Part shown: one piece after another, positions 11,226 through 42,538 of the stretch
Numbering within the stretch: position 1 is the first letter of the stretch
Layout: every line of letters starts with the position of its first letter
From: Takakia lepidozioides
Taxonomy: Eukaryota > Plantae > Bryophyta
DNA length: 64,000 nucleotides
Assembly: GCA_030704615.1 (NCBI GenBank)
Contig: CM060731.1
Coordinates: 7,812,001-7,876,000, forward strand
Direction of reading: 5' to 3'
Notes under the pieces: generated by a model
The model's database searches: none
What the model was told of the DNA's origin: nothing
What the model saw: the letters and a program-made list of their open reading frames with translations, nothing else
Position numbers and translations under genes: made by a program

Positions 11226-11227
11226 CT

Positions 11228-11239
11228 TGGTATCAGAGC
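11228..11239 (+). promoter_or_regulatory. Primer-binding site, initiator tRNA-Met type
   Basis: TGGTATCAGAGC 2 nt after the LTR end. Confidence 0.95.
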
Positions 11240-11280
11240 TTAGAGTTCAGTACGCGATCGTCCTTGGGATTGGCCTCATC

Positions 11281-17574: not shown

Positions 17575-17860
17575 TGTCAAGTTAAATAAGCATAGTGTGA
17601 AAACAGGTAGAATAAAACTAGTTATTTGTATTTAACACTTGGATTTAGGTCAAGTGTTAAATCAGGTGTCAAGTTTAGTTTGACACCTGGTCCGTCTTAT
17701 CTTCACGAGAGCGGCAGTCGCGTAGCTCATCTCTCTCGAGTTGAGCCTGCGCGACCAAGCTCCTGCATGCGTTTAGATTTGAGTGTGCTTATGTAGGGGT
17801 ACAGGTTGTTGTGGGGTGGAGTCCCCATAGCTTGGGGTGCCCCTGGCTCGACTACTGTTT
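17575..17860 (+). repeat. Element D left terminal repeat (part alignable with the right copy)
   Basis: Colinear with 42248-42538; contains two adjacent inverted repeats (17629-17662 and 17663-17689). Confidence 0.85.
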
Positions 17861-19464
17861 TAAAGAGTGATGGTTTGGTTTTCATGTTTTGTGTCAACAG
17901 TGTGTTCGTTGGTTTTCTATCACTCGAGAGAGATGAGCTCTTACCTGTGAGTGCAAGGTAGGAGTTGAGGGTTAGCACTTGCAAGATTACCTGTGTGTAA
18001 GTAGTGCTTAGTTTGAAAAGCATATCATTGAATGTGACCACAAGATTCAGCGTGCCCTGAAACGCCTGGAGGATGACGATGCCGGAGCCGCCACTGTTAT
18101 TACAGTCGCTGAAGCTACCAAGTCACCAGAGGCTTTGGAGTACACAAGGAGAGACTTAAAAATGCAGCATGGAGCAGCACTGGCAAGCTGTGAACGCTGA
18201 TATCTGCACTACCACAACGTCCCTAGGATGAATACAAAGTGCCTGGAGTGAAATGGATAGCTGGAGAGCTGCTCAGGCCCATACATTTTGGGAGTTAAAA
18301 GTCACATCTGTATGTTGAAGGCCCAATTCGCCAATGTGCGGAAGAGTGTGGGCATCCGAGTTTTCTAGGAAAGGAGGCCAGTGCTTGGGAAAAGCTGGCT
18401 ACAAGTTTTGGAGCAGGTGACGGCCAGGCCTGCGGTACTTTGAAGACGATGATGTAGAGCTTGAAGAGGGTCTGGTTTCGTTGCTGGGGAAGTAGGTGGT
18501 ACGGGCATGGAATCTGGAGGACCCCGGCTTGTACGTGGGGAGTTTCGATGTGCTCTTCCCGATCTTGCTTTCAGATGCCTTAGTTGGGTTGTGCGTTTCT
18601 TGAAAGGCCAGCTTCCGGTATAAAGATGCGGGTGTGGACTCTTCAAAGTAGTGGAGAGAAATGCGGGGAGCAGAGGTGCAAAGGGTGATCAAACTGAATG
18701 GACGGAGGGGCAACATTCTTGAGCATAGGATTTGAAGAAATGATGTGTGATCGATGTGGAGGGAGAACACGTAAGCTTATTTTATTCAAACTTTGCCGAG
18801 GCCCCGTAGTAGAAGTTAGCTCAACAACGTGGTGATGAAGGTTTTGGTGGGCACTTCGGTGTTTGTAACAAGAGAGACGGACAGTGGCAACGTTCAGGCC
18901 ATGGAAGTTGCCGAGCTCACTCAGCGGGTGACATCACTTGAGAAGCGTTAAGCTCGGTACCGGCAAGTCTTGCAGCCAAGATCTCGAATTGAATCGCCAG
19001 GCTGGAGATTATGTGCGGTGAAAGTGGCAGAGAAGGTGGCCCGTCTAGAAATCTATGGCGCGCGACGTGCTGCCCTTTCTATTCCGAGTTGCTACTGTTA
19101 CCAACCTTCCCGCCCCTTTCCACACGCAGCGTGCACTCTACCTAGTTCCACCGATATTCAGTCAAGAAGTTTTGGAGTGAATGTTCTAGGTTTCCTGGCT
19201 TCTATTATCTAACAGGCTTTCGGAGAGCTGGGCAGAGCCAGGTGGTAAGATCACTCCGTTTCGGATCATCCTGGCAAGATGTAGAGTTTGCAGTCACAAA
19301 CACAAGAGAGACAGAAATGCTCGAGTTGTCAGCGATTTCGTCCCTGAAGCCGAATTCGTGAAGCTTCTTCCGAGCTCTCTCGCTTCTATCATTGCAACAG
19401 CAAACCACATAGTTTCGACTGGGTCACATTCTGGAGAAACGACTCCTTGATCAGTCCAGATCCT

Positions 19465-19981: not shown

Positions 19982-20124
19982 GCCCTTTTGATCTAAGTTA
20001 AAGGATTTAGAGCCTAATTGGTCATATCTTTGGCAAATGAACTCCGTTTGACACAGTTTTTGAGGGGATAGCTGCAGAAAGGGGAAATCTGCCTGAGAGA
20101 CAAATTTGTGGATGTACTCCTTGC

Positions 20125-20874: not shown

Positions 20875-21393
20875 ATCAGGATTAGATCTTGCTTGGTCGG
20901 GCTTCTATTCTTCCCCTCCATCTCTGTACTATTTTCATTACCTTGTACTTGTAGTTGCCAAAGCCTCTCTTGGTGGAGGCCAGTCAGTCCGGGGTTTTGG
21001 GCTGGGCTATTATGCAGGATCAGCATTGCAGCTGGATTTTGGTGTGGGGGTGTTGATGTTTTGATTTCTTGTGTTTGGATCCCCCCCAACACTTGCATGC
21101 TTGACTGTGCGCCATGTTGGTTTTGTGTGGGCGCTTGCTTTCATAGGGATTAGGCCGGATTTGATCACCGGTCAATCCTAGAGTATGTTGTCGGTGGTGA
21201 GGCTGGAGTGATGACCAGCAAGACCACCAGTGTTTCTTCTATGGTGAGGCTGGGTTGATGACCAGCCAACCATAGGAGTTCTTGCGGTGGATGCAGGTGC
21301 AGGTGCCCTGAGCCATTGGGATATGACCCTTAAACTGCAACAGGTGCCCACCCGTGTCACTATTAGATTAGTACTAGAGCCTTATAGTGTCAT

Positions 21394-24216: not shown

Positions 24217-25596
24217 CGGGGGCAACAAGCCTGGGTAGAGGCTTTTGTACCGTCAGGAGAGGAGGAGAGTGCGGGTATTGCACCAGGATCACCTCAGTTG
24301 TCACCATTGGATACCACACCTATTGTGTGGCAGTATCCGGATGAAGGCATTTGCCTTCTGGACTTGTTTGGCGGGATCAGCACCGGATTGGCTGTTGTGC
24401 TACAGGCAGGTGTGCGGGTAAGGCGTTACCTGTATGTGGAGAGGGATGAGACTGCACGACGCGTCTCACTGCGCCATGTGGCTCAGTTGGTACAGCAGTA
24501 CCCTGACTTGTTGCCTGTGTCTACAATTCGTGGATACCAACAAGCCTTGCCAGCAGACATTTCCTTGTTGGGGGCGCAAGATTTGGAGCAGGTTGGCTCC
24601 ATTGATCTGATAGTGGCAGGTTGGCCCTGCCAAGGGCATTCATTAGCCGGGCATGGCAATGGATTGCGAGACTCGAGGACGGGTCTGTTTTGGGAGATGG
24701 TGCGGGTTTTGCGCCACTTGCAGCTTCATCAAGCTGTATCTCCAACATACATCTTGGAGAATGTGCCACTGATGGGTGATTCTCGGGCCAGGGTGATGGC
24801 CAGTGTGCATCAAGTCCGGTCGTGGCTTGGGTCAGCAGTGCTGCTGGATGCAGCTGCAGTGGGATCACGGGCTCATCGTCCACGGCTTTGGTGGACTAAC
24901 TTGATGCCACCCGCACTGCTCAAGCGTGCATATGATGGGGTGCAACGGCCAGCACACCTCACCGTGGATGGCATTTTGGACACAGGGAGGCAGTCTCAAC
25001 GTGTGAGACACGATGACCGTTCGCCTTTGGCAGTGGTCAACAGGGTCGGTCAACCACGAACAACATTACCTACACTGCTCAGCTTCCCAGGATCCCATGC
25101 TTTTCGGGATGGTGGACCTGGCCTCTTGTGGGATAGCCAGTTGCAACAGTTAGTGGAGCCTAATGCCGACGAGCGAGAGCGGACTATGGGATTTTCCACT
25201 GGGACCACGGCGGTGCCTTCTCTTTCTGAGGCATCACGTCGTCAGGTGTTGGGGCAAGCAATGGATCTCAATTGCTTGACCTGGATTATCAGCTTGGCTA
25301 TGGCTGAGCAACGTAAAGTGCGGAGTGCACTTCCCTTGATGGTCTCTCTGCCTACCGAGACTGTACAGGCAGCGAGTGGGGGCGAGCCGGTGAGGACCAC
25401 GGGGTGTAGACATCCATGGCACACGTGGGAGGTGCTCGAGGTTCAGAGGGAGTTGGCAGCCAAGGCAGCTGTGATGGATGAGGTTGGGGATTCTTCTCGG
25501 GATGAGGAGGTTTTCAATGATGAGATGATGGGGCAGGATGAGGCCTTGTCATTGACTGAGCAGGAAGGGAGTACTGCTCAAAAGGTTGCAGCATAG
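24217..25596 (+). CDS. C5 cytosine DNA methyltransferase domain (DNMT3-like motif order) inside the element D polyprotein frame
   Basis: Motif I DLFGGI (24361-24378), II YVERD, IV GWPCQ (24619-24633), VI ENV (24757-24765), VIII AHRPRLWWTNL, IX ERERTMGF, X RRQVLGQAM. Confidence 0.93.
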   Translation, partial: RGQQAWVEAFVPSGEEESAGIAPGSPQLSPLDTTPIVWQYPDEGICLLDLFGGISTGLAVVLQAGVRVRRYLYVERDETARRVSLRHVAQLVQQYPDLLPVSTIRGYQQALPADISLLGAQDLEQVGSIDLIVAGWPCQGHSLAGHGNGLRDSRTGLFWEMVRVLRHLQLHQAVSPTYILENVPLMGDSRARVMASVHQVRSWLGSAVLLDAAAVGSRAHRPRLWWTNLMPPALLKRAYDGVQRPAHLTVDGILDTGRQSQRVRHDDRSPLAVVNRVGQPRTTLPTLLSFPGSHAFRDGGPGLLWDSQLQQLVEPNADERERTMGFSTGTTAVPSLSEASRRQVLGQAMDLNCLTWIISLAMAEQRKVRSALPLMVSLPTETVQAASGGEPVRTTGCRHPWHTWEVLEVQRELAAKAAVMDEVGDSSRDEEVFNDEMMGQDEALSLTEQEGSTAQKVAA

Positions 25597-25834
25597 CAAC
25601 CACGGGACGCGTCCTCTACCTCTAAGCCCACTGAACTTAAGGTTGCAGTTACGGAGGACAATTGGGAGCCTGACATTGGACCCATTGTCATCGGAGGAGA
25701 GAGACGACGTATACGGCGGTTCCTGAGGGTTTACAGGAATTGCTTTGCCTTCAGTTTGAAGGACTTGGGAGCACTGAAGGGTCAAGAGATCCGTATTGAG
25801 TTGGCCACTGACACGCCAATATTTCGGAGACCCT
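25597..25834 (+). pseudogene. Element D pre-RT segment up to the A1 insertion
   Basis: In frame with the DNMT: ...YRNCFAFSLKDLGALKGQEIRIELATDTPIFRRP. Confidence 0.85.
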
Positions 25835-26803
25835 TGTTAGAGGACTGTCGGGGACTTAGACACTTATACGGGATCTGTAGGGTACCCTTAATTTTTGCAC
25901 AGACTAAGACCAATTGGAGCCTTAGGGGTGACAGCAGCGCACTGTAGAGGGGGGTTACACAGCCCGTCACAGTCGTCCCAGTCGTCACAGCCGACACAGC
26001 CAACACAGCCCGTCATAGTCGTCACAGCCGACACAGCCAACACAGCCCGTCACAGTCGTCACAGCAGACACAGCCAACACAGCCGACACAGCCCGACACA
26101 GCCAAACACAGTCGCACAGCCAGTCACAGCCCGTCACAGTTTCACACAGCCAGTCACAGCCAGTCACAGCTTGACACAGCTGTCACGATCATAGGGAACG
26201 AAGAGTAGGAACGACTGTGGGGAACAACACCTGCGAAGGGAACATGTTAGTTCACAGACACGGTTAGTGAGGGAAACGGTTAGAACCGCGGATATGAAGA
26301 TAAAGGGAGAAACGGGGAATTGAGGGACATGATTCGGAGGAGGACTTCTTGGTGATAGAGGAGAGGGGATCGGGCAGAGATGAAGAACGGAAGTGAAGAT
26401 AGAGAGATGAAGAGTAGATGCTTGATATATGCAAGGCTGTAATGATATTGTAGAGGAGATTAGAGACACAATGGCTTCGGCCTGATACCTGATAAATCAT
26501 AATCGGATACTTTTACGATACAATCACACTGTGTAGAGAGATCTGAGTGAAGCTGTGGAATGAATGGATGAGTTGATGGAATCCAATAGATTGATAAAGC
26601 AAACTGATACTTAATTATCAATGGTAAGATAGTTAACATGAATACCAAAAGGGAAACAAATAGGAAACACCCCCATGATACACTAGCTGTAGGTCATGAC
26701 TGATTGTTCTGCGCGGGCTGAGTACTTAGAGATTTCCAACTCTTCAATCTTGGAGTTTCCGCCTCGAATAGCGAAGGGATGGGTGAGTAAAAGCCGCGCG
26801 ACA
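25835..26803 (+). repeat. A1 5' LTR
   Basis: TGTTAG...CGACA; direct repeat of 38019-38933. Confidence 0.95.
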
Positions 26804-27391
26804 TTTGGCGACCATACTGGGGACCTGGGACATGAACAACCAGATGTGACAGGCATCTGGTGGGATCATGGTGGTTGGACCATTAAAGAATTTGAAGTGA
26901 ATCAAATTCCCTGTGGAACGAAGGAAGAAAGATTGTCCAAACAATTCTTTCAAAGGTTCTTGGAATTGCCAGACGATTGTAAAGAAAATATTCTTAAACG
27001 AGTGCATGATGCTGATCCAGAATGGGGTCTGGAGAAAGGAGTGATAAAGATTTATCAGGTAGCCTGTAGAGGAAGAGCACGTTGGTTACCAACATTGGTT
27101 TATGTGATAGCATTGCTATCCATTAAACGAGTAGAGTTTGAAGGCTGGGAAGAAAGAAAGGTGAATGTTTATACTCATATGCATGAAGAGCTTGTACTGG
27201 TAAAGAATTGGATTCCAAAGGATATTTTGTGGATCAAACTCACACCAAGAACAGTTTTTCAGACTTGTTTGCCATATGGTTATATGGTAACGGAGACTTC
27301 AAGTATAGCCAAGGGTGCATTGAAGCTTGAAAGAAACCCAGGCATATACGAGAGATATTACAGAAGAGAGTTTTGGTTATTGCCACACTAA
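26696..27391 (+). CDS. Family A ORF0, 231 aa, unknown function
   Basis: Open in all three copies; several inter-copy differences are synonymous. Confidence 0.7.
   Translation: MTDCSARAEYLEISNSSILEFPPRIAKGWVSKSRATFGDHTGDLGHEQPDVTGIWWDHGGWTIKEFEVNQIPCGTKEERLSKQFFQRFLELPDDCKENILKRVHDADPEWGLEKGVIKIYQVACRGRARWLPTLVYVIALLSIKRVEFEGWEERKVNVYTHMHEELVLVKNWIPKDILWIKLTPRTVFQTCLPYGYMVTETSSIAKGALKLERNPGIYERYYRREFWLLPH
26806..26823 (+). promoter_or_regulatory. Primer-binding site, probably tRNA-Arg type
   Basis: TGGCGACCATACTGGGGA 2 nt after the LTR. It resembles the complement of plant tRNA-Arg 3' ends (recalled, not searched). Confidence 0.7.
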
Positions 27392-27412
27392 AAGAAATGA
27401 AAGACATGGGAC

Positions 27413-30400
27413 ATGAGTGATGAAAGAGAAGCTAGACGACAGAGATATTCAGCAAAAAGAGAAAGCTATCTGAAAGCTAATTATCCATATCTTTGGGAGA
27501 GAGGAATAGACATAGGGGAATCATCTGGACCTCTCACACCATTAAGATCAAAGAGTGCATCACCTATACCGGAAGAACTAGAGTTGGATGCCACTCCTTC
27601 TGTTTCTTTGCAAGAAAGATTAAGGGAATTGGTACAGGAAGAAGATCAATCACGAGGTGAAAGATCTGAGGTACATCCTTGGATAAAAGACTTGACAGAA
27701 ATCTTTGATAAGAGTTGGCATGGAACACCAAAAGCAGGAACTCCAGTTTCTGAAGCAGAAGGTGAAGAAGGAGAAGAGGATGTGGCAGAGCCAACGGAGA
27801 GTTCAGACTCTCCAACACCATTACAGTTGAGTTACATGAGTGAAGAAGAAACCCAAGGGCAGAACTTGGAGGATGAAAACAGAGAGAAGAAATTAGAAGA
27901 GGAAGAATATGAAGAAGTAGACCCAACAGCTGAGGTTGAGACTACAACCAGGACATCCCAACCCGTTGGACCTGGATCAAGTGGAGCACTTGGATCACAG
28001 GCCAACGAAGGTGTCGGCTCAGGGGGATCAGGCGGGCTGCCTGGATCTGGCTCTGGGGGACAGGGAGTGTGGGAAGTAGTGCAACTGAAGCTGGGAATAC
28101 TGTGAATATCGTGGGGCCAGAAGCAGGGAGTGCTCAAGGGCCACCACTTGGTGGAAGATCCACCACAAAAACAACAGGTCCAGAAGGACCAGCACCAGCA
28201 AGGGTGCCAGCACCTGTCAGTGGGCAGAAGGTAGGGCCACAGATGGCGTTACAACCAACACGGGCAAAACCACCTTTCCTATTCAGGAAAAGGGGATCCC
28301 GATGTACACATTAGCCAATTTGAGCACATGTGTATAGTGAACAATGAGAATGGCGATGATGCCAAGATGAGATTGTTTCCTTGTTCACTTATCAAGAAAG
28401 CAAGTGAATGGTATGCAAGATTCCCTGATAATCATTTCCTAACCTGGAATGGCTTGAATACAGCATTTCGAAATAGGTTCAGGACAAGTAAAACTGAGGA
28501 TGAAGTGTATGGAAGTTTACAACAGCTGAAGCAGAAGAAGCATGAAACTGTTGAAGAGTATATGGAGAAGATGGAATTGATGATGAAAAAGCTGGCTGCA
28601 GTACCAGCGCCCGGTTTACAGAAGACTTGGTTTGTGAGTGGACTAAGACCAGAGTTGCAAAAGAAAGTGGATATGTTACCCCATAATACAGTGGAGGAGG
28701 CATTTGAAACTGCGAACAGAATTGAGCAATTGGGAATGCTCAGGAGAGAGAAAAAAGAAGATGAGGACTCTGAGGATGAGTCAGATGAAGAAGAAGAGCA
28801 AGAACTAAAAAGAAAGAGTAAGAGAAAGGAGAAGTTGAAGAGGGATAACTATGAAAAAAAATTGGAAGAAATCTTGAAGAAGTATGCCACAGAGGCTGCA
28901 ACACATTGGAGGAAGGGTGTATGGTGTGCAAAGTGCCAGAATGAAGGCCATACCACCACAGAATGCCACATGAAGGAGAAACACTGTACTATCTGTAAAA
29001 TGGATAACCATTCTACTGAGAATTGTTACTACAACAGAAGGACAGCTGCAAGAGAACCTAGGCAAGTAAGGGTGCATCAGGTGCAGCCCCAGCCAAGAAG
29101 AAACAATGATCAGGACCACTATGGTAGGTCTGGTGGTTATAACAATGGCATGGAAGGGAGAGGTAATTCAAGAGGGAATTACCAAGGAAATTCCAGAGGC
29201 AACTATCAGGGTAATCCAAGGGGGAATTACCAGCCCGGGAATCAGGATTATAGAAATAATCCAAGAACAGACCAAGGGCGAGGACCCAATGGTGAAGAGC
29301 TATGTTACTATTGTAATCAGCCAGGACATCGCAAGGCAGCCTGTTCATTCTGGATAAGACACCAGAATGAGATGAGAGCTCCTGTGAATGAGGGCCCAGT
29401 GGTGGCAGCTCACATGGTTAGGCCATGTGTTGTACCAGAAGTAAGTACAATGATAGTAACAAGAAGTAAAGCCAAACTAATACCTCCAGTAGAAGAGGAA
29501 GAAGATGAGACTGGAAGTGGCAATGATATGCCTGAAGATGAAGAGACTTGGAAAGATGAGAAGGAACTGCACAAGGAAGTGGCAGATACTATAAGGGAAA
29601 TGCAAAAGAGTACTGATATTCCTGTGGCAGATTCCTCTGATTCGGATGGAGAAAAAGAAGGGAGTGAGGAAGAAAGGAAAAAAGAAGATGCAGACATGCA
29701 AAGTAATGAAGAGACTTTGGCTGAAGTAATATGTCAGACCAAAGCAGAAATTACCATTGGACAGCTATTAGCTGTGGCACCTTATTGTAGGCACAGGCTG
29801 TATCAAGCAATCAATCGAATTGCCCAAGAGACAGGAAACACAGACCTGAACAGCAAGGTGACCAGTTATAATGTGAAGCCGGAAGGGCGAGAAACAGTCA
29901 TGGACTTTGATGATTCTATGCCAGTAATCCAATTGAGAATTGGAAGCACAGAACTAACTGATGTACTGATAGATGGTGGTTCTGGAGTAAATATCATGAC
30001 AGACCAATTAAGGAAGAAGCTTGGTCTAAGTAACATGAAACCAGCCCCATTTACAGTAACAATGGCAGATCAAAGAAGTGTACAGCCATTGGGATTAATA
30101 AGAGGAGTTAAGATACAGATACAGAAAATGATCTTTATGATCACAGTAACTGTATTAAAAATGGATGAAGTCATGGAGGCTTACTCCTTATTATTGGGAC
30201 GTCCGTGGCTGAAACAGGCCAGGGTATTCCATGACTGGAATTCTCAGTTACTAACCGTGCATAATGGGATACACGAGATACAAATTACCACAAAGAAATC
30301 TAGTAGATTACCTGCTACAAGAAGACCTCGAGGAGTCAGAGAGTATGACTGGAGAGGAGGACTGGATGAGGAGCAGGAAGCTACCCTATTTGCTGCACAC

Positions 30401-33400
30401 CCAGAGTGGGAGCAGGTTGCAGAGATGCGGCTGGAAAGCCTAAGTTGTTTGAGAGGTATCTGCTGTGGTGTAGTGACAGCAACACCAACTGAAGAGGAAA
30501 CCAGCATTTACCCATCACATTTCTATGAAGAAAGAGAAGGAGAAATAGAAATCCTAGAAGAACCAGCCACTGTGAGCTTACAGGATGAAGTGGTGACTGG
30601 TTGGACAATCACAGCTGATGAGCAGGTGAGAGAAGTAAATGTGGGAACTAAAGAGGAACCGAGGATGGTGAAAGTAGGAGCTGATTTGGAGCCGGAATTC
30701 TTCGAAGAAGCTAAAAGCTTGTTCATCAAATACAGAGATGTATTTGCTTGGAGCTATGAGGATCTAAAAGGGATACCACCTGAAGTCTGTCAGCATAAGA
30801 TTGAACTGGAACCAGGGTCAGTACCAATCAAGCAGGCGAGGTATAGAATGAATCCCAACTACGCACAGAAGGTTGGAGAAGAGATAAAGAAGTTGGCTGA
30901 GGCTAAGTTTATATACCCAATAGAGTATACAACTTGGTTGTCACCCATTGTTATAGTTCCCAAGAAGAATGGCAAACTAAGAGTATGTGTGAACTATAAG
31001 AAGCTGAATGCTTGTACGAAGAAAGATCCTTTCCCTTTGCCATTCACAGAAGCAGTATTAGACACTGTGGCAGGCCATGAGATGTACTCATTCATGGATG
31101 GCTTCAGTGGTTATAATCAAGTGCAAGTGGCAGAAGAAGACCAAGGGAAAACAGCTTTCATCACAGACTGGGGGGCTTATGCATACAAAGTCATGCCCTT
31201 TGGACTTTGTAATGCACCAGCGACCTTTCAGAGAGTGATAAGTGAATCTTTTCATGAGTATCTGGATGATTTCATGCAGGTATTCTTGGATGATTTCAGT
31301 GTGTACAGCTCTAAGAGTGAGCACTTGCATAAATTGGAGTTATGTTTGGCCAGATGCAGGATGAGAGGTCTGGGCCTGAATCCAGAGAAGTGTACTTTCT
31401 GTGTGAACTCAGGGGTGCTTCTGGGACACATTGTGTGTAAGAAGGGACTCTTGTGGATCCCAGAAAGACAGAGTCCATTAAAGCCTCTCCACCACCAGTG
31501 AATGTTAAAAGTCTACGGAGATTCCTTGGGCAAACCAGTTATTACAGGAGATTTGTCAAAAGGTATGCACAAATAGCAGCACCATTGAGCAAACTACTGA
31601 AGAAAGATGCAGTGTTTGCCTGGACAGCTGAATGTCAACAGGCATTTGAGGAACTTACACTGTCAGTAACAACTACACCTGTGCTGATTAACCCTCACTG
31701 GCATGTAGTATTCCATGTTCACTGCGATGCATCAGGAGAAGCGTTGGGAGCGGTGTTAGCCCAGAATGTTACAGGGAATATAGATTCACCTGTGTACTAT
31801 GCTAGCCGGTTGATGAACAGTGCTGAGAGGAACTATAGCACAACGGAAAGAGAAGCATTGGCAATGATCTATGCAGTGAAGAAATTCAGGCATTACCTGT
31901 TGGGCAAGAAGTTTATGTTCTATGTGGATCACCAGGCTCTGATATACCTGGTAAACAAACCTCTGATAAGTGGAAGAATAGCAAGATGGTTGATAATCTT
32001 GCACGAGTTTGAGTTCGAGGTTGTTTACAAGCCTGGAGACTGCATCTTGTGGCGGATCATTTGTCACGATTGTCAACAGGAGAACCAGCCACAGGAATAG
32101 ATGATCAATTACCAGATGCGAGTCTCTTTGCAGTGGAGGTGCAGGGAAGTGCAGATGACTGGTTAGATTGGCAGTGGCCAATCAGATACTACCTTGCTCA
32201 TGGTCAGTGCCCACCTAGTTATGGTAAGGAGCAGAGGAAGAGAATCGCTATCAAAGCTTTACCTTATACTATGGTAGGAAGCAGAATGTATAAGTTAGGA
32301 CCTGATGGAGTACTAAAACGATGCTTGTACCACCATGAAGTAAATAAAGTTTTGGCGGAAGTTCATAAAGGAGTGGCTGGAGGTCATTTTGGAGAAGAGA
32401 CTACCAGTAGAAAGATACTACTCGCAGGATACTGGTGGCCTACTTTGTTCAAAGATGTACACGAGTATTGTCAGAAGTGTGATGAATGTCAGAGGCTAGG
32501 ACCTTTGCAGAGATCTGGAAGGATGGCCTTGCATCCTACAATGCCTACGGAACCATTTCAGAAATGGGGACTAGACTTTGTTGGACCAATTAACCCACCA
32601 TCCAAGAATACACGAAACAGGTACATAATTACAGCCACTGATTATACTACAAAGTGGGTGGAAGCTAAAGCTTTGAGGGACAACACAGCCAAGTCCACAG
32701 CAAGGTTCCTGTACGAGAACATACTTACACGATTTGGCTGTCCCTTAGAATTTATCAGTGATCAAGGAAGTCACTTCATGAATGAGACCATTGAGTTGTT
32801 GACTAAAGAGTTTATGATTGTGCATAGAAAGAGTACAACATATTACCCACAGGGTAATGGGCAGGCAGAGGCTACCAACAAAATACTATGTACTATCTTG
32901 GCTAAGATAGTCAATGCAAACAGAACGGATTGGGATACAAAGCTGCTGACAGCTTTGTGGTCATACAGGACTTCATATAAAGTCACCACTAAGTATACAC
33001 CATTCCAATTAGTTTATGGTATGGAAGCCTTACTTCCAGTGGAATTCCTGTTACCTACCATGAGAACGGAGTGGGGAAAAGAATGGAATTGCAAGACTCC
33101 ATCAAGGTCAGGAAACATGAATTATACCATGTGGAAGAAGTACGTGCTGATGCAGCTGATAATATGACCAGAATTCAGATGAAGCGAAAGGAACAGTTTG
33201 ATGAAGGCAAGTTAAAGACTTTTAAGACGGGGGATTTGGTTCTATGGTTGCAGAAGAAAGGAAAGATTCAAGCTTCTAAGCTTAAATCACCATGGAAAGG
33301 ACCTTATGTCATACAAAAGATGTATGATAACAACACCGCCATGTTACAAACCATTAACAAAGAAATGCTGGGAAGAGTCAATGCAAATAAGTTGAAGGGG

Positions 33401-33838
33401 TACAGTGGTATCCATGACAAACCCTTGCAGCATGATTTGCATGTTGAACCGCAAGAGCAGTCACGGGCTGCACCAGTGTTACGAACGGAGTATGGAGCAC
33501 TTGTCGCTAGGCCCAGCATATATGACCAGGGTGGGCAAAACAAACGTGACACATCCTATCACAGCCCATCACAACGTGACACAGCCTATCACAGCCCAGC
33601 ACGGCGCAACACAGCCTATCACAGCCCATCACGACGTGACACAGCCTATCACAGCCCATCACAACGTGACACAGCCTATCACAGCCCAGCACGGCGCAAC
33701 ACAGCCTATCACAGCCCATCACAACGTGACACAGCTATCACAGCCCAGCACGGCGCAACACAGCCTATCACAACCTACCACAGCGTGTCACAGCCTATCA
33801 CAGCTTACCACAGTGCATCACAGCCTATCACAGCGTAA
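27413..33838 (+). pseudogene. gag-pol: A1 gag-pol with several frameshifts (Gag, CCHC knuckles, PR, RT, RNase H, integrase)
   Basis: ORFs 27413-28105, 28069-28314, 28328-31501, 31453-32100, 32049-33167 and 33071-33838. Motifs CYYCNQPGHRKAAC, IDGGS, FLDDF, CDAS, WGLDF, SDQG, WKGPY. Confidence 0.93.
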
Positions 33839-33876
33839 CACAGTATGACACAGCCTGTCACAGCTCAACACAGCCT
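33546..33876 (+). repeat. 30-bp tandem array (acacagcctatcacagccca...) after integrase
   Basis: Translates as a 10-aa repeat RDTAYHSPSQ/RNTAYHSPSR; shorter version at ~54922-55135. Confidence 0.9.
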
Positions 33877-34254
33877 ACTAAAGTTACACGATCCATAGAA
33901 TCAGTGACAAGTGGACGCATAATAACTTCAGGAAAATGGCTGACGGAAGAGGAAACGGAAATTACTTTAAAAATAGACACGTGGAGGTCAGGGCGCGACA
34001 CACAGCCGAGAAGGAAGTGCAAGAACAGGTGTCAAAAAGAAAGAGGACAAGAACGGCCGTCAAAAGGGATGAAAGGCGGGCCCATTAATGAATACGGAAA
34101 AAGGGAAACGGAACGAACGGCAAGTACAGAAAAGCGGAATTCTTGTCACATGTGTGATCCTAGTGGACTATCCAACAGGGAAAGTCCACTAAAGAAAATA
34201 AAATCTAAAATCCAGTCACAGCGGATACAGCCAATAGAAAACCAGAGAAAGGAT

Positions 34255-37200
34255 CAAGAAAATGGAGGGAAATTGAGCGCAAGAGGCGGCGTCGTTCTGA
34301 GTAACGGGCGTCTCGACAGGACAGACCATCAATGCTATAACTTGGAAACTATGGAGGAACTAACAGACTATACGCTCGCAATATTACTTACGCAGTGGCA
34401 TAGACACGAAAGGACAGAGCGGAGCTTTTCTCTTGAGCGATGCTTGCAAGCCCCGCAGGCTTACAAGAAATTACCCATAGCTTTCTGGCAACCATACGTT
34501 TATGCTTTGTGCACTACAGGCATTCCTGCAGTTGTTACAGCCAAAACAGTTCTGTGAGTCTAAAATGAAGAGAGTGAGAGGAATGGAGGAAATCAGGGTG
34601 AAGAGCACCACAATTCTGCAGAAACAAACGATTGCTACCCCACAGGCGATACAGATACTGGAGGAGCTGAGATTGCAAGGATTGCAAAGCCTAGATTGGA
34701 CACTACACCATAGACAGTACATGTTACAATTTTTGCAGAACTTTGAGCCAAGGACAGGAACAACAACGGTGAAGGGAGTTGAATTAATGATTACTCCCCT
34801 ATACCTCCAGCAATTGTTTCGATTGCCAGCAGGTCAGGTGCATGTGGAGGAACACAGGGCAAGACTGCAAATAGGGGACTTATTCCAAGAAGGGAGTTTC
34901 TTTAAAACTCAGGGTTATGCTTGTACCAAGGCTGTGTACCCAGGGTTAAAAGAGGTAGGCCAGGTATTGAACGTTCTGATTGCCATGAAACAGAACCAAC
35001 AGTATTTGAGCAGATCCTTCACGGAGGAAATACTCAAAGGCCTGAAGGGACAAGAGGTACAATGGGCGGACATAATGTACAACGCACTGGTAGAGGAGAT
35101 GAAAAGATTACAAGGTACTACCGCAAAGTCTCCTATAATAGTGTCTGGCCCAATCATTGCTCAAATAATCCTTGATTCTGGCATACTTAATGCGCAAGAA
35201 AGAAAGGAAATGGGAGTGTTTGAGCCAGAAACAACTGCAATGGAAGAGCAAGGCTCTTCACACAGTGAGGGTGGACTAGCAGGGCAACCTGAGACTAAGA
35301 GGCAGAGACGGGGAAAGACTGTGGTGGCGGATCCACTGGCTTCACGGATTCCGCATGATAATGTTTCCCAAGCTCATGGCCAGGAAGGGGCACAGCAGCA
35401 CAGAGAAATGCTATTACTGGAAGCAGGACCTTCAGAGAGGGAGGAGGAAGTTACTTCTGCATCACAACCATCACAGCCACCTGAACGACTTGTCACAAGG
35501 TCACAAGTTATCCATGCAGCTCAACCAGAAATAATTGATTTGGAAAGAGAAGGGTTAGATATTCCAACTACAGAACAGATAGTGGCAGAAATAGAGAAGG
35601 GGGACCTTCTCTATGAATATTCTGGTCTGGTCAAGGAGACAGAAATCCCAGAGGTGCAACAGTTGCCCAAGGGAAATCATGAGGTGCATATAATACAAAC
35701 ACCTGTGTCGGAGGTACCACAGGCGGAAGGTCATGACACTGTAGCACCGGTGATAGATGAAGTAGTTCAGGAAGAAAATTGGGGACTTATGTCAAATCCC
35801 ATGTTCCAATTACCCAATTGACAGCCTTGAGAGAGGAACTCAGGAAGGAGTTTGAGGCTCGACTAGCCACTGAGTGTGCAAACAAGGTCGATGAAGAGGT
35901 CACTCTCAAGATGCAGCAGGACTTGGGAAATACAGAAATGGCTTTGCAATTGGCCAAGGAACAATTGATTGAGGCAGGCCTCGCGCAAGACCAGTTGCAC
36001 GAAGCACATAAGCAACAGCTATACCAAATGCAGGTGCAGCATGAAAGCAAGTTGCAAGAACTGAATGCACTACATACGGAGTTGCAGACAGTGCATAACA
36101 GGATGGCGATACAATGTGCTACATTCACAACTATGCTTGACCAATCTACAAAAGAAATAAACAGTCAAGCGGAAAAATGTACGAAGGCAGAAGAAGAGAA
36201 TGTTGAGCAAATGAAGCTCATTGTCGATATGAAGAATACAATCTGTCGCAATGAAGATACTTTCAAGCAATACAGGCAGATTGAAGCTGATCAAGAGAAG
36301 CACATCGTGGAGTTGCAACAAACCATCATGGCCAATAGAAATGAAATCGCGGTCAATAACAAGGCTTGGAAGGAAGCCAATAATCTACTTGCTGCTTATG
36401 CGCAATTGGTTGAACCTCAGGCGAAGCGCATGGAGGCTTTACAACAGCAGTTGGAATTGTACAAGCTAAGAGAGGAGCAAACTCTCAGGGGAACCACAAG
36501 CAACTTGGTGGATAACAGCCTTATGCAGGTCTGGTTAGCACAAGGGCCAGTAGAGGGCAAAGCACCACGGAAGCTCACCCAAAGCGAGATGAATGAGCTC
36601 AGGCTGCAGGTGCAGAACATTGCCACAACTACTATAGACAATGTCTATAGTAGGATAGCAGAGTTACAAGAGGATGTAGACGGACTGCAGACTCAAGTGG
36701 AAGACCTCACTTCAAACATCGACCAAAGAGTCTATATCCCTCAGGAACAGCTAATGGCTTCTTATTTACAAGCCAGAACTTTGGCTTTTCAGTCTTCACA
36801 GGAGGGCAGGAGATGCCAATGATACAAGAGCCAGTACCACCACCACCACAACAAGTCACTGTACCAGTAGCTGAACCTGTGGTTACTACAACCACACCAC
36901 AGCCACCACAGCCGGAGGTATGGGGCAATGCCGCTTTTAACCCACCTAAAACTCCAGCTGCCAGGGAGTACAGTAGGGCTATGATTATGCCCTTCAACCA
37001 AATTCCCATCATGTTGGATTTGGCTTGGAAAGAATTTAGTCCTCCGCAGTCATTCGCACATTACTACCAAATCATGCGTATTTGGCTGCCAGTGGCAACT
37101 AGGACTAAAGTTCTTCCGAACAATCGACATATTGAAGATCATCACTTTGCACAATACTGGCACGAGGCAGGTACCATGTTGAGGGAATTGATTGCTTTCC

Positions 37201-37980
37201 AGGTTGTACATGGACTCATTTATACCAAGACCAAGGAGATAGCAAGTATTGTCATGGGGTGCGGGTTATACTACGCTGCTTGTTTTCTGGTACGTTACCA
37301 CATTGAGCAACAAAAGATGCAAACACGCTTTCTGAGTTATTCCAGTGGAGATCATTGGGTATTACCTTCGGTGCCACCTCATATGTACCTATATGACCCA
37401 AAAGTTATGATGCAAAAGGATTCTCAATTCGTTCATGGTTTCAAGCGGCTTGGAACCATTTGTCAACACAAAAATTCGGCATTGATGACATTTTCTATAA
37501 GGGACATGTGGCATGGAAATACTTGCACGCTGCACCAGTAATTGGTACCCACTCACCTGGACAGACAAGGAGCTCAGTGTCTACACCAATTTTGCTGTTC
37601 AGCGGTTACACCAAGTTGTAAAATACAAACTTCCAGACATGGTAGGACAGCATTGTATGCCCCAGATGATTCCACAAAAAGTTTGAAAATTAAAACACCT
37701 GAGAGGCGATGAGGATTCTGATACAACCGTTTCTTCATGGAATTCTTTTGACATGGGAGAAGACTATGCAATTCAGATGGCAGAGAAGAAGCAAAGGGGG
37801 TCTCCTATGCCGGAAAGGTTACCTCGATATCAGCCTCCAGAGGGCCTCACTTATCCAGGTAGTGATCAACCATCTCCGTCAACCAGAGACAGACCTCGGG
37901 CTCGTACACACAGTCCGCCACGAAACTCTCAACGTCAAGAAGGTGCTCACTCACAAAGGTTTGCTAGTCGAAATCAGTAA
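34255..37980 (+). pseudogene. A1 extra 3' ORF (frameshifted): N-terminal plant-transposon-protein-like domain, coiled coil, C-terminal globular domain
   Basis: ORFs 34502-35821, 35779-36822 and 36813-37541, homologous to 55326-59075 and 43039-44964. Start position approximate. Confidence 0.75.
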
Positions 37981-38018
37981 ACCGTGAGGACACGGCTTTT
38001 TGAGGGGGGAAGGGGTAA

Positions 38019-38933
38019 TGTTAGAGGACTGTCGGGGACTTAGACACTTATACGGGATCTGTAGGGTACCCTTAATTTTTGCACAGACTGAGACCAATTG
38101 GAGCCTTAGGGGTGACAGCAGCGCACTATAGAGGGGGGTTACACAGCCCGTCACAGTCGTCCCAGTCGTCACAGCCGACACAGCCAACACAGCCCGGCAC
38201 AGCCACACAGCCAGTCACAGCCCGACACAGCCAAACACAGTCGCACAGCCAGTCCACAGCCCGTCACAGTTCACACAGTTAGTCACAGCTTGACACAGCT
38301 GTCACGATCATAGGGAACGAAGAAGTAGGAACGACTGTGGGGAACAACACCTGCGAAGGGAACATGTTAGTTCACAGACACGGTTAGTGAGGGAAACGGT
38401 TAGAACCGCGGATAGGAAGATAAAGGGAGAGGAGAAACGGAATGAGACATGATTCGGAGGAGGACTTCTTGTGATAGAGGAGAGGGGATCGGGCAGAGAT
38501 GAAGAACGGAAGTGAAGATAGAGGATGAAGAGTGATGCTGATAAGATGCTTGATATATGCAATGGCTGTAATGATATTGATGAGGAGATTAGAGACACAA
38601 TGGCTTCGGCCTGATACCTGATAAATCATAATCGGATACTTTTACGATACAATCACACTGTGTAGAGAGATCTGAGTGAAGCTGTGGAATGAATGGATGA
38701 GTTGATGGAATCCAATAGATGATAAAGCAAACTGATACTTAATTATCAATGGTAAGATAGTAACATGAATACCAAAAGGGAAAACAAATAGGAAACACCC
38801 CCAGGATACACTAGCTGTAGGTCATGACTGATTGTTCTGCGCGGGCTGAGTACTTAGAGATTTCCAACTCTTCAATCTTGGAGTTTTTCGCGCCTCGATA
38901 GCGAAGGGATGGGTGAGTAAAAGCCGCGCGACA
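38019..38933 (+). repeat. A1 3' LTR
   Basis: Follows PPT gaggggggaagggg; differs from the 5' LTR mostly by small indels and array length. Confidence 0.95.
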
Positions 38934-41900
38934 AACCATAGATACAGTGACATGGAGAGGTCTTTGATTCAGATGAGGACTCAAGATCTCTGGAGGCAGG
39001 TTTGGTGGAGCTCTCTGGGAGAAATATGCTTCAGCCCAGTGATGAAGTGATGCCGGCCAAGAAGGATGTCTAGGCAATTGGACGGAGAGAGTATGTGCGG
39101 TGATTACGGCCTGTAAATGTCAGACCAAAGTCCGATAGGATATGCCATGCCGACACCAGAGGAGTTTTTTTGTGATCTTTGATGCCATTGGGCAGCCAAG
39201 GCCTTACTAGCACGTTGGATTTACGATCCGGATATACCAGTTGCGATCAGGAGGTGGATAAGCAAAAGACGGCATTATTAGGGATCAATGAGCACGGAAA
39301 GGAGGCCGTATACCAGTGGTGGGTTCTTACCATTTGGGCTTAAAAACGCCCCCCCGCTATGTTCAAAGAGTCATGGATAGGATTCTAGCAGGGGTGGAGT
39401 TTGCTCGGTGCTACATAGATGACATCATCTCTTTAGTGCTACGGTGGAGGAGCATGAGAGATGAGAGACACTTCAGGGGGTATTTGAGCGCTTGAGGGCG
39501 CACGGATTGAAGTTACATCCGGGAAGCATGCAAGTTTTTCCACAACCAGATTGAGTATCTGGGTCACATGATATATCCTGGGGATTGGGGGTACAGCAGA
39601 CTAAGGTAGAGTCCATATGCACAGGTTCCACGCCCACGGATGTGAGCCGAGTTCGAGCTTTCATGGGGTTAGCAAACATACAGACGGTTTGTTAAGGGAT
39701 TTAGTGGCCATTGCAAAAGGCTCTAACAAGCTGACCAAAGGTGGACCAGGAGAGTGGCGGCAGTGGAGGAGATGAGCAAGAACAAGCTTTTTCAAGAGAT
39801 CAAGGCTGAGGCGAGGTTGACCTCGGCGCACATTTGAGACGACCTATCAGGGGGCGTCTCTTTTCAGCTGCATACAGATTGGAGCATGGTGGGGCTTTGG
39901 AGGCGGTGCTCACACAGGTGGATGATGAGATAAGAAGAGAGTTCGTAGTGGCTTTATGCTAGCCGCTCGAACAACACTGCAGAGTCTAAGTATAGCTCAT
40001 ATGAGGGAGAGAATGCTTAGCTGTAGTGTGGGCCGTGGCACACTTCAGGTGCTATCTATACGGCAATCTCTTCACCCTTGTCACGGATCACCAACCACTC
40101 AAATGGTTGATAGAGTCAGACAAGCTTACGGGGAAGCTTGCACGGTGGGCACTCATCCTTCAAGAGTATGACTTTCAGGTGGTGCATCGACCGGGTTGGT
40201 CAATCGCAATGCAGATGGGTTGAGTCGCAATCCATGCACCAAGCCAACAGGATGACACTAGAGCTCGGTGGCATGGTTGAGACGGACGAGGAGATGGTAC
40301 CCGGATGGCATGCATCTGCATTTCTGTGTATCTTGGCAGCGGAAGGCCAGGTTGGACCTGCAACAGGGATGACTGTAGATCAAGTGTCTGAGGACCCTGA
40401 GGCCAGCAATGAGCAAGGTGGCGCCAAGATATACATGAGGATTCAATTGTGTTGGACTTACCTCCGCATTGGAGACACGGCAGCCACTGTGACTGCCAAG
40501 GAGAGGGATCGGATCCTACAACGAGCCAAGAGGTGTTCAAGGGTGGAGGGGGACACACCTGCTCCGAGTGTGGGAGGATGGTCGAGTGAGGAATTGTGCC
40601 TCACCCAACACCGCGGGCACGGTTAGTGCGGCATGCCCATGAGGAGTTGGGGCATTTTTGGGTGCGACGCACTCATAGTCTACTTGCAGGGGCAGTATTG
40701 GTGTGCGTGGTATGCACACAGAGGTTTGCAACAATTTGTGGCTAGGTGCATGGTGTGTGACAGGGTGCGTGCTTCATTCAACGCCCCTACTCCACAATTG
40801 CACCCTCTTCCGATCACGGGATTGGGCTACAGGTGGAGTCTTGACTTCGCAGGGCCGTTGCCACTGACCATGCGCCACAACAAGTACGTGTTGGTGATGG
40901 TGGAGCACTTCTCCAAGTGGATTGAATTGGTTCCATTGCCTGATAAGGCTAGTGAGGGAGCTGCATATGCATTCCTGGATTGTGTGCTTAGCCGATTCGG
41001 TGCTCCAGCTGAGGTATTCACGGACAAGGAGAGAGTAGAGGTCTGGGGGGGAGTTTCAGGCTTGTGTGACAAGGCCTTGATAGACCACCGCACCACTTCT
41101 CGGGATCATTCTGAGGCCGATGGCTTGGCGAGAGAGGTTGTTCAGACAGTAAAGAGGGGTTTGCGCAAGTATGGCTTGCAGAAGGGACACCTAGGAGATT
41201 GGGACCTTCAGTTACCCCTGGTTAGCCATGGGCTACAGGTTCAGCAACCAAGCATCACTTGACCCTTCTCACCATACTTCTTCTCTTTGGCCGAGAGCCG
41301 GATTTGCCTACATCCATTCGCAGAGAAGCTGCTACAGTTCTTAACCTTGACGATCCGGACATGTGGGCACGTGCATGTGAGCATCGTGCAGAGTTTTATT
41401 CAAGAGAGTCATGCCCATGGCTTTCGAGAAACCTTGCAATTGCACAACACCGTGATACGTTGAGGTATGCTACCATACGTGGGTGGGGGCTATCGTCCTG
41501 GGGTTCGGAGATTCAACCTGGTGACTATGTCTATCTGCAGCAGGACTGCTCCTATGACCCGGATGTGACGCAGGACGTGTTATTTGAGGGTTTGAGAGGT
41601 CTTGCCCTCAGGCGTCTTGGTCTTGGAGGGTCGGGATGGCATAACTTGAAAGGACCATGTGCGTAATTGTGCGCCATGTCACCTTCCGATGTCGATGGCA
41701 AAGATTGACCCCAAACCTGTCAGTGGTATCTGCAGGTTTGAGGTGCATGTTGTGTGGGTCTGCAAAGGGGCAGCCACCATGCTGGTGTGCGATTCGATGC
41801 TCTAGAGGTTGGCATATGGGATGCTTGACTCCACCTCTTGAGATGGTTCCATATGCGGATTGGTTATGTCCAATTGCATTGGATAGTGGTAGTTGGATAC
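38934..41900 (+). pseudogene. pol: Element D RT, RNase H, integrase and C-terminal PHD finger; many indels
   Basis: LPFGLKNAP, CYIDDI (~39409-39426), HTDWS, YSSYEGECL, VTDHQPLKWL, CMVC, WSLDFAGP, EHFSKW. PHD at 41744-41877. Confidence 0.88.
41744..41877 (+). other. PHD zinc finger at the integrase C-terminus
   Basis: CMLC...MLVCD(fs)RCSRGWHMGCLTPPLEMVPYADWLCP(fs)C, i.e. Cys4-His-Cys3 with the typical H-x-x-CL-x-PPL-x-x-VP-x-x-DW-x-CP tail. Confidence 0.85.
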
Positions 41901-42247
41901 AACCATGGAAGGCTAACAAGAAACGAAAGGCCCAGCTACTAGGAGACCTTGAACACCGAGATCCTGGCTCAAGTTCACAGATTGCAAGACGGCGACTAAC
42001 GATGGGGCACTCTGTACCCGGCCCCTTGGTCTATAGAGTTTGAGTACAATAGGGACCGTGATAGAGGACTTAGTACGGTTGTGGCTATTACATCTTGTAG
42101 CTATCTGGAGGTAGAGGGGACTATCCACCAGCTAGGGGGGACGGGCGGGGCGATTGTGACAAGACTACTTTATTGTGCCAATATGTGTGGTGTTGGTTTG
42201 GCCAGCGATGTAGTTGCTATTGTAGCGATATGTATGCGCACGACAGC

Positions 42248-42538
42248 TGTCAAGTGTAAATAAGCACAGTGTGAAAAACAGCTAGAAATTAGAACTAGTT
42301 ATTTGTATTTAACACTGGATTTAGGTCAAGTATTTTAAATCAGGTGTCAAGTTTAGTTTGACACCTGGTCCGTCTTATCTTCACGAGAGCGGCAGTCGCG
42401 CAGCTCATCTCTCTCGAGTTGCGCCTGCGCGACCAAGCCCTGCATGCGTTTAGATTTGAGTGTGCTATGTAGGGGTACAGGTTGTTGTGGGTGGAGTCCC
42501 AAACTAGCGTGGGGTGCCCCTGGCTCGACTACTGTTTT
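42248..42538 (+). repeat. Element D right terminal repeat, truncated by the assembly gap
   Basis: Colinear with 17575-17860. May begin earlier at 42155 (TGTGACA after a purine tract). Confidence 0.85.

What the first reader, a model, noticed from the sequence alone, without database searches (positions are those of the whole stretch)
41744..41877. PHD finger where chromoviruses place a chromodomain
Seen: a Cys4-His-Cys3 PHD pattern (with small indels) follows the element D integrase, whereas neighbouring element B has a chromodomain in this position. Known: PHD fingers read histone H3 tails, and animal DNMT3 uses a PHD-like ADD domain to sense H3K4. Inference: it may direct integration to a chromatin state or couple that state to the element's own DNMT.
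Basis: partly seen in the sequence, partly recalled or inferred. Interest (0 to 1): 0.7.

Follow-up and report, generated by a model that had tools for sequence, protein, structure and literature searches.

The report
PHD-tipped integrase of methyltransferase-carrying retrotransposon
A broken copy of a jumping gene ends its insertion enzyme with a real PHD zinc finger, a fusion kept across a large family in liverworts, peat mosses and green algae whose members mostly also carry a DNA methyltransferase; the finger likely reads unmethylated histone H3 tails and would steer new copies away from active promoters.

Summary
The PHD finger is real (first Cys 41744, last Cys codon 41875-41877, three frame breaks inside). 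It follows the SH3-like C-terminal domain of a Ty3/Gypsy integrase, the slot where neighbouring element B has its chromodomain. The breaks are private to this copy and probably assembly errors. The fusion is lineage-wide: 53 of 57 informative protein relatives and 52 of 52 informative DNA loci have it, 6 loci in one open frame; named relatives are liverworts, Sphagnum and Volvox. The finger lacks the H3K4me3 cage tryptophan and best matches readers of unmodified H3 (ATXR5, ORC1b, KDM5 PHD1). Best reading: it likely tethers the intasome to H3K4-unmethylated nucleosomes (0.6; binding and targeting untested). Coupling to the element's DNMT is less likely (0.15): it is not an ADD domain, and a conserved leaky stop separates gag-protease-DNMT from RT-integrase-PHD. 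The family works like chromoviruses but is not one. It resembles KnitGypsy-Dnmt3 (DNMT in Pol, split repeats), and a PHD in a Gypsy polyprotein is published for Chlamydomonas. The scan noted this kind twice before on other DNA. New variant of a known kind; interest 0.45.

The parts
17575..17861 (+). Element D 5' terminal repeat A1, begins TGTCA
   Evidence: 93% match to 42248-42538; start shown
21388..24216 (+). gag and protease, open for 942 codons, then one premature stop
   Evidence: Retrotrans_gag E 0.0032; 59% identical with the DNMT part to Marchantia model P0084, which is continuous here
24217..25596 (+). C5 DNA methyltransferase domain with motifs FGG, YVE, PCQ, ENV, RxRxW
   Evidence: PF00145 E 5e-13; motifs; 57-68% identical to Marchantia models
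25594..25602 (+). In-frame TAG followed by CAACCA (CARYYA leaky-stop context) between DNMT and RT
   Evidence: same single stop with CARYYA in L001, L002, L029
25597..25834 (+). Start of reverse transcriptase region, cut by insertion of element C
   Evidence: tblastn of P0011 residues 3-91 in the DNMT frame
25835..38933 (+). Element C, an unrelated Ty3/Gypsy element inserted in D's RT
   Evidence: LTRs 25835-26803 and 38019-38933; gag, RT, RNase H, integrase
38934..41262 (+). Rest of RT, RNase H, integrase zinc finger and catalytic core, frame-broken
   Evidence: rve E 5.7e-8; 68% identity to P0011 through breaks
41470..41690 (+). Integrase C-terminal SH3-like domain (GGGYRP...GDYVYL...PCHLP block)
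   Evidence: beta-barrel at model residues 263-327 of relative P0005, pLDDT mostly 62-89
41744..41877 (+). PHD finger, Cys4-His-Cys3, ATXR5/KDM5-PHD1 type, three frame breaks in this copy
   Evidence: relatives pass PF00628 cut-off; fold match 5vab Z 9.1, rmsd 1.7 over 52 residues
42134..42247 (+). Polypurine tract (42134-42150) and probable repeat B1
   Evidence: sequence; same order PPT-B1-A2-B2 in relatives; the B2 partner is not seen in the window
42248..42538 (+). 3' repeat A2, cut off by the N gap 42539-43038

Best explanation
[quoted passage not shown] Shown: the domain order gag-protease-DNMT-RT-RNase H-integrase-SH3-PHD, the in-frame fusion in intact relatives, the fixed spacing, the lack of the H3K4me3 cage tryptophan, and a leaky-stop context between DNMT and RT. 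Inferred: (1) RT-integrase-PHD is made by stop read-through and the PHD stays on mature integrase; (2) the finger binds H3 Ala1/Arg2/unmethylated Lys4 as the ATXR5 finger does; (3) this tethers the intasome to non-promoter nucleosomes, the job that chromodomains do in chromoviruses. This copy is dead (insertion of C in RT, a stop before the DNMT).
For: PHD in 53 of 57 relatives that reach its site, always 15-20 residues after the SH3-like block; 52 of 52 informative loci, 8 families, 6 loci open from integrase core to PHD end; 142 of the best 150 representatives at 50% identity, a count biased upward because the profile held the PHD. Zinc ligands kept in 48-50 of 50 aligned fingers; pN/pS 0.41 in family 5, like the integrase core at 0.40. 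Trp two before the His in 0 of 52 and 1 of 137 fingers; that Trp is invariant in H3K4me3 readers (PMC3241642, passages). Best sequence and fold matches are KDM5 PHD1, PHF21A, CHD4, ATXR5, ORC1b, DPF, UHRF1, BAZ2. ATXR5's H3 contacts L37, L39, D41, V59, P60, G62 (PMC5499861, passages; alignment) have like residues in 37-49 of 50 fingers. Gypsy-7a_cRei, with a PHD in Gag-Pol, inserts between genes 2.6 times more often than chance (PMC9940879, passages).
Against: No binding or insertion data exist for this family here. The acidic residues typical of unmodified-K4 readers are absent in D's own clade: 0 of 8 have an acid before the first Cys and 0 of 8 the acidic wall (criteria from PMC3241642 and PMC5415848, passages); the ATXR5 D44 contact is D or E in only 17 of 137. 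Constraint on the finger is weaker in family 2, the nearest to D in PHD sequence (pN/pS 0.64 against 0.40 for the core, 11 sequences), and between families (0.65 against 0.41). Two relatives, P0069 and P0076, have no PHD. The Gypsy-7a bias may come from selection after insertion, as its authors say, and its kinship with this family was not tested.
Confidence: 0.6

Rival explanations
1. Reader-writer coupling: the PHD senses unmethylated H3K4 and recruits or activates the element's own DNMT, as ADD does for DNMT3, so that new copies or their flanks are methylated.
For: DNMT and PHD travel together: 28 of 29 loci informative for both; DNMT in 81 of 83 informative representatives. In one large clade the DNMT lies directly before integrase. 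ATXR5's PHD binds its own SET domain and aids cofactor binding (PMC5499861, passages).
Against: The finger is Cys4-His-Cys3 and matches no DNMT3 ADD among the best 60 PDB hits. In D, L001, L002, L029 and most of family 2 a stop separates DNMT from RT-integrase-PHD, so most DNMT would be made without a PHD. The DNMT changed position once on the RT tree while the PHD never left integrase. P0202 and P0223 keep the PHD without a detectable DNMT. Co-occurrence is also what shared descent gives. KnitGypsy's DNMT showed no activity in yeast, called inconclusive by the authors (PMC5890265, section 3 part 3).
Confidence: 0.15
2. The finger is a non-histone module in this sublineage: it binds a host protein, nucleic acid or the intasome itself, or only stabilises integrase, having lost most histone reading.
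For: D's clade lacks the acidic residues and has neutral to basic fingers, mean net charge +0.9; weaker constraint in family 2; some PHD fingers bind non-histone partners (PMC3241642, passages).
Against: ATXR5's finger also lacks these acids and still binds H3 with K4 read by backbone carbonyls; the Arg2-binding Asp and the Ala1 pocket Pro-x-Gly are kept in 47, 49 and 41 of 50.
Confidence: 0.15
3. The finger reads H3 tails but acts after or apart from site choice, for example in nuclear retention of the intasome, nucleosome assembly on the cDNA or shielding the new copy from silencing.
For: Unmethylated H3K4 covers most of a genome, so it is a weak address (inference); Kapitonov and Jurka's chromatin-remodelling role for TE PHDs is cited in PMC9940879.
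Against: The strict position at the integrase C-terminus matches known tethers (element B chromodomain; chromoviruses as summarised in PMC6673714, passages).
Confidence: 0.1

Closest known systems
KnitGypsy-Dnmt3 / streptophyte 'Gypsy-DNMT3' (de Mendoza et al. 2018, PMC5890265; name in bioRxiv 10.64898/2026.05.21.726589)
   Same: Gypsy domain set with an intron-less DNMT in the polyprotein; DIRS-like repeat structure (Fig. 4 legend), seen here as A1...B1-A2-B2 in 6 of 39 loci with long 3' flanks.
   Different: 'PHD' does not occur in the main text or three readable supplements; Fig. 4c and the main supplement could not be seen, so a PHD may be drawn there. Reported for Klebsormidium only; here in liverworts, Sphagnum and chlorophytes, with two DNMT positions and a leaky stop. 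No Klebsormidium protein was among the named hits.
Chromoviruses (Ty3/Gypsy with a chromodomain at the integrase C-terminus; element B here)
   Same: A histone-reader fold just after the integrase SH3-like domain.
   Different: PHD instead of chromodomain; predicted to read unmodified H3 N-terminus rather than a methyl-lysine; integrase of relative P0011 is only 27% identical to B's and 29% to C's.
Gypsy-7a_cRei of Chlamydomonas (PMC9940879, passages) and REM1 (Perez-Alegre 2005; not held, known from citation and recall)
   Same: Gypsy polyprotein with a PHD finger; targeting already proposed; subdivided LTRs in the figure legend.
   Different: No DNMT listed in the legend; PHD position not stated in text (legend lists it before INT); kinship not tested. 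REM1's PHD and chromodomain lie in a separate antisense ORF (recalled).
ATXR5/6, ORC1b and KDM5 PHD1 fingers
   Same: Closest folds and sequences: 5vab Z 9.1 rmsd 1.7 over 52, 5hh7 Z 8.7 rmsd 1.6 over 52; Gly two before the His as in ATXR5.
   Different: Host enzymes, not integrases; D44-equivalent acid mostly lost; donor of the finger not established.
Other TE-borne PHD fingers (Ginger1-9_HM; cnidarian retrotransposon-PYGO fusions; CR1 LINEs) and EpiLTRs
   Same: PHD or chromo readers on integrase-like proteins or together with methyltransferases (PMC2836005; bioRxiv 2021.11.30.470311; PMC6673714; bioRxiv 2026.05.21.726589; passages).
   Different: Other element classes or hosts; PYGO-type fingers read methylated K4; EpiLTRs use a chromodomain and a DNMT4-sister enzyme.

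Membership tests
PHD finger (PF00628) | Cys4-His-Cys3 ligands with PHD spacing | tested here: met
   Seven ligands in the X read-through, eighth codon out of frame; ligands 48-50 of 50 in relatives; relatives pass the Pfam cut-off, the window's single frame does not
PHD finger (PF00628) | PHD fold | tested here: met
   Model of relative P0005, pLDDT 80-89 over the finger; Z 9.1, rmsd 1.7, 52 aligned to 5vab
H3K4me3-reading PHD (ING, BPTF, TAF3) | Invariant cage Trp two residues before the His | tested here: not met
   0 of 52 and 1 of 137; the window has Gly
Unmodified-H3K4 PHD readers | No aromatic cage; hydrophobic residue before third Cys; Arg2-binding Asp | tested here: met
   L/I/V/M/F in 132 of 137, Asp in 127 of 137
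Unmodified-H3K4 PHD readers | Acidic residues before the first Cys or acidic wall | tested here: inconclusive
   0 of 8 in D's clade, 106 of 137 and 44 of 137 more widely; ATXR5 binds H3 without them
Unmodified-H3K4 PHD readers | Measured binding to H3K4me0, lost on methylation | not testable with these tools
   needs peptide binding assay
DNMT3 ADD domain | All-cysteine PHD-like finger preceded by a GATA-like finger (recalled) | tested here: not met
   His at ligand 5 in 50 of 50; only 15-20 residues between SH3 block and finger
Chromovirus | Chromodomain at the integrase C-terminus | tested here: not met
   No Chromo in D's ORFs; 1 of 83 relatives (P0059) has PHD plus Chromo
Chromovirus | Placement in the chromovirus clade by RT-RH-IN tree | not tested
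   No reference set at hand; B and C served only as outgroup
Ty3/Gypsy | Order protease-RT-RNase H-integrase; TG...CA ends; short target duplication | tested here: met
   Order in D and loci; TGTCA...ACA ends; exact 4-bp duplication in 2 of 6 complete loci, 3 of 4 bases in 2 more
KnitGypsy-Dnmt3 / Gypsy-DNMT3 | DNMT domain inside a Gypsy polyprotein | tested here: met
KnitGypsy-Dnmt3 / Gypsy-DNMT3 | DIRS-like (split) repeat structure | tested here: met
   A1...B1-A2-B2 complete in 6 of 39 loci, B1/B2 in 16 of 39; the window shows A1, probable B1 and A2, then a gap
KnitGypsy-Dnmt3 / Gypsy-DNMT3 | DNMT groups with the Klebsormidium element Dnmt3 clade | not tested
   No Klebsormidium sequence retrieved

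The most novel reading that the evidence does not exclude
A green-lineage-wide, largely unclassified clade of 'PHD-viruses': Gypsy elements that pair an ATXR5-type reader on integrase with a DNMT made at Gag level in front of a leaky stop, so that the particle methylates its own cDNA while the PHD places it in H3K4-unmethylated chromatin. That would be a self-targeting, self-marking retroelement, and a third integrase tether type beside chromodomain and MBD, testable in Marchantia.
Probability: 0.3. Interest if true: 0.7.

Novelty: new variant of a known kind. Interest (0 to 1): 0.45.

Why it matters
Where retrotransposons land shapes plant genomes, and the known plant tether is the chromodomain. 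A PHD tether conserved from chlorophytes to liverworts and peat mosses would be a second, widespread solution with a different read-out (absence of an active mark). Copies exist in Marchantia polymorpha, which has chromatin maps (recalled), so the long-proposed but untested idea that TE-borne PHD fingers guide insertion can be tested directly. It also matters for annotation: several Marchantia 'PHD-type' and 'methyltransferase' gene models are pieces of this element.

Tried and rejected
Chance Cys pattern or host gene caught by nesting: rejected, the finger continues the integrase alignment at 71-73% identity. Conserved break between integrase and PHD: rejected. No genome of the window is held, so insertion sites and sister copies could not be counted. 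Complex prediction of the P0005 finger with an H3(1-30) tail: no verdict, score 0.31 against a mark of 0.34, no controls run; no evidence either way. Expression: no RNA holder listed; run X9 is only guessed to be RNA, so its contig across integrase and PHD says nothing on transcription. No relatives in viral contigs. A search for the host donor of the finger returned only element pieces, 14 hits among 35 candidates. Fold searches are dominated by the integrase core; the SH3-like part was not folded alone. REM1 paper not held. Paper searches for this combination in print found no paper that describes integrase-PHD in DNMT-carrying Gypsy elements; the library lacks most subscription papers and theses, 'PHD' is absent from the main text of the plant LTR classification PMC6317226, and unseen material (Fig. 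4c and the large supplement of PMC5890265, the cut supplement of PMC9940879, supplements of the two preprints) may show it. One search was a script error, repeated.

Full report
Setting. The window is a nest of Ty3/Gypsy elements. No genome is held. The host is not identified; named relatives of the element are from Calypogeia, Riccia, Marchantia, Sphagnum, Tetrabaena and Volvox. Element D runs from a repeat at 17575 through gag-protease (21388-24216), a C5 methyltransferase (PF00145, E 5e-13), the start of RT, the 13-kb insertion of element C (25835-38933), the rest of RT, RNase H and integrase, to the finger, a polypurine tract and a repeat at 42248 that is cut by an N gap. Element B nearby is a chromovirus-like element with identical LTRs and SH3 then Chromo at its integrase end.

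The observation. A frameshift-aware alignment with X at breaks against three intact relatives places seven zinc ligands at 41744-41867 and shows 71-73% identity over the integrase C-terminus and finger; the eighth Cys codon is out of frame at 41875-41877. The single open frame scores PF00628 at E 0.0013 (below the curated cut-off) and KDM5B PHD1 at E 6e-7.

The breaks are private. Contigs of four public runs (at most three samples) differ from the window by an indel at or beside each break in the finger (41762-41763, 41793, 41872) and at 41688-41709, and 98% or more of the depth has another letter in the stop at 41648-41650. In X1 and X2 only part of the depth shows each indel, probably because short contigs end there. 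D's 3' half has 38 frame breaks in 2.9 kb against 2 in 3.9 kb of its 5' half, and the two LTRs of C differ by 7 substitutions but 24 gaps. Both halves of D have one age, so local assembly error next to the gap is the likely cause (inference; decay is not excluded). The copy is dead anyway: C sits in RT and a stop precedes the DNMT.

The fusion is lineage-wide. The integrase ORF found 83 longer proteins among 1144 candidates. With profiles built from them, 53 carry the PHD, 26 end before its site and 4 have a long tail without a hit; of those 4, one has a degenerate finger and one looks frameshifted by eye, and P0069 and P0076 truly lack it. The gap between SH3-like block and finger is 15-20 residues in 53 of 53. 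Of 80 metagenome loci, 52 reach the site and 52 have the finger (42 distinct at 98%, 8 families at 85%); 6 are open in one frame from integrase core to finger. Of the best 150 representatives at 50% identity, 142 have it (biased, since the profile held the PHD). pN/pS of the finger is 0.41 in family 5 (core 0.40), 0.64 in family 2 (core 0.40, only 11 fingers) and 0.65 between families (core 0.41, synonymous sites saturated): kept by selection, less tightly than the core. A model of relative P0005 (mean pLDDT 77.5, pTM 0.55) has three modules: catalytic core, a beta barrel at 263-327, and the PHD. On the integrase tree D joins three Calypogeia proteins (SH-aLRT 98, quick tree, long branch from its broken ends).

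What kind of finger. H3K4me3 readers need an invariant cage Trp; unmodified-K4 readers lack the cage, have a hydrophobic residue before the third Cys and usually acids before the first Cys (PMC3241642, passages) or an acidic wall (PMC5415848, passages). The cage position is Trp in 0 of 52 and 1 of 137 fingers, mostly Gly. The best PDB matches by sequence are KDM5 PHD1, PHF21A, CHD4, ATXR5, DPF, UHRF1 and BAZ2, with no ING, BPTF or TAF3 in the best 60 shown; by fold, ATXR5-H3 (Z 9.1, rmsd 1.7, 52 residues) and ORC1b-H3 (Z 8.7, rmsd 1.6, 52), tied with DPF2. Against a strong K4me0 reader, D's clade has no acids at either place (0 of 8). ATXR5 also lacks them and reads K4 with backbone carbonyls (PMC5499861, passages). 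Its contacts L37, L39, D41, V59, P60 and G62 have like residues in 37-49 of 50 fingers; D44 does not. So the finger is predicted to read the unmodified H3 N-terminus, perhaps weakly. Binding is not shown.

Relation to the DNMT. DNMT lies upstream of RT in 42 of 47 loci with enough flank, and 28 of 29 loci informative for both have both domains. Among the 150 representatives 81 have a DNMT, 2 with long N-termini have none, 67 cannot be judged. The DNMT sits before RT or between RNase H and integrase; the second type is one clade (SH-aLRT 100, one change of state; root weak). In D the DNMT frame ends in TAG CAACCA and RT goes on in the same frame. L001, L002 and L029, three other families, have one such stop with CAATCA, CAGTTA and CAACTA; 13 of 16 family-2 loci have TAG or TAA with CAACCC or CAACCT; family 5 has no conserved stop and 4 loci are open; L052 has a stop without the motif (44 loci examined). 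Four Marchantia-type gag-protease-DNMT models end at the same place. CARYYA is a known read-through context (PMC3441728, passages). So in D's sublineage the DNMT would be made at Gag level and integrase-PHD at a lower level (inference). This, the moving DNMT and the two DNMT-less members argue that the finger serves integrase, not the DNMT; the tight co-occurrence keeps coupling open.

Ends. Relatives have split repeats A1...PPT-B1-A2-B2 (complete in 6 of 39 loci with long 3' flanks), TGTCA...ACA ends and a 4-bp duplication (exact in 2 of 6). [quoted passage not shown]

What is known. Gypsy elements with a DNMT in Pol are published for Klebsormidium (PMC5890265; passages, one section part, three supplements searched; no 'PHD'; figure and main supplement unseen) and cited as streptophyte Gypsy-DNMT3 (bioRxiv 2026.05.21.726589, passages; PMC12344493, passages). 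A PHD in a Gypsy Gag-Pol with intergenic bias is published for Chlamydomonas (PMC9940879, passages). PHD fingers in retrotransposons are called widespread (PMC6673714, passages; bioRxiv 2021.11.30.470311, passages; PMC2836005, passages). The plant classification PMC6317226 has no 'PHD' or 'methyltransferase' in its main text. The scan itself noted this kind twice on other DNA, and K4me3-type analogues in animals; these are unchecked AI notes and count as leads only.

Verdict. The feature is real and belongs to a large family. It works like a chromovirus tether by position and fold class, fails the chromovirus test on the domain, and meets two of three features of Gypsy-DNMT3 (third untested). 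Both ingredients are in print; the lineage-wide integrase-PHD plus DNMT pairing, the ATXR5-type read-out and the leaky stop were not found in the searches made. New variant of a known kind, interest 0.45.

Noticed in passing
window 25594-25602; L001, L002, L029: Conserved in-frame TAG with CARYYA context between DNMT and RT, so the read-through point lies after protease and DNMT, not after gag; some families have no stop.
   Followed up: yes
window 17575-17861, 42134-42538; L041, L046, L050, L065, L071, L075: Split terminal repeats A1...B1-A2-B2 on an integrase-using element with 4-bp target duplication; how reverse transcription rebuilds such ends is unexplained.
   Followed up: partly
window about 38170-42538: Indel-rich stretch next to the N gap, probably assembly error: LTRs of C differ by 7 substitutions and 24 gaps.
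   Followed up: yes
window 10502-17468: Element B: chromodomain element with two identical 724-bp LTRs and open gag and pol frames, a very young insertion.
   Followed up: partly
window 32993-37541, 43670-44833, 55236-59075: Element C family carries long extra ORFs after integrase with no Pfam match, and CACAGC-type tandem repeats in LTRs and interior; several copies at 80-96% identity.
   Followed up: no
proteins P0084-P0098, P0106-P0109, P0111, P0116: Marchantia gene models named hypothetical, PHD-type or DNA methyltransferase are fragments of this retrotransposon family.
   Followed up: partly
proteins P0059, P0047, P0140, P0126, P0142, P0232: Further add-ons in relatives: Chromo after the PHD (P0059), weak Tudor-like match after the PHD (P0047, P0140), G-patch before integrase (P0126, P0142), CCCH fingers in gag (P0232); 112 of 142 representatives have 100 or more unassigned residues after the PHD.
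   Followed up: partly
window 46016-46900 (minus): Relic 68% identical to D's gag (22246-23126), between inverted C-family LTR pieces.
   Followed up: no
window 20041-20874: Open frame of 277 codons in D's 3.5-kb leader with no Pfam match.
   Followed up: partly
window 62509-63363: Tandem array with a 95-bp unit.
   Followed up: no
L081-L111: 31 IMG/VR contigs hold a canonical histone H3 N-terminus; L090 and L101 encode an H3 with an insertion after residue 28.
   Followed up: no
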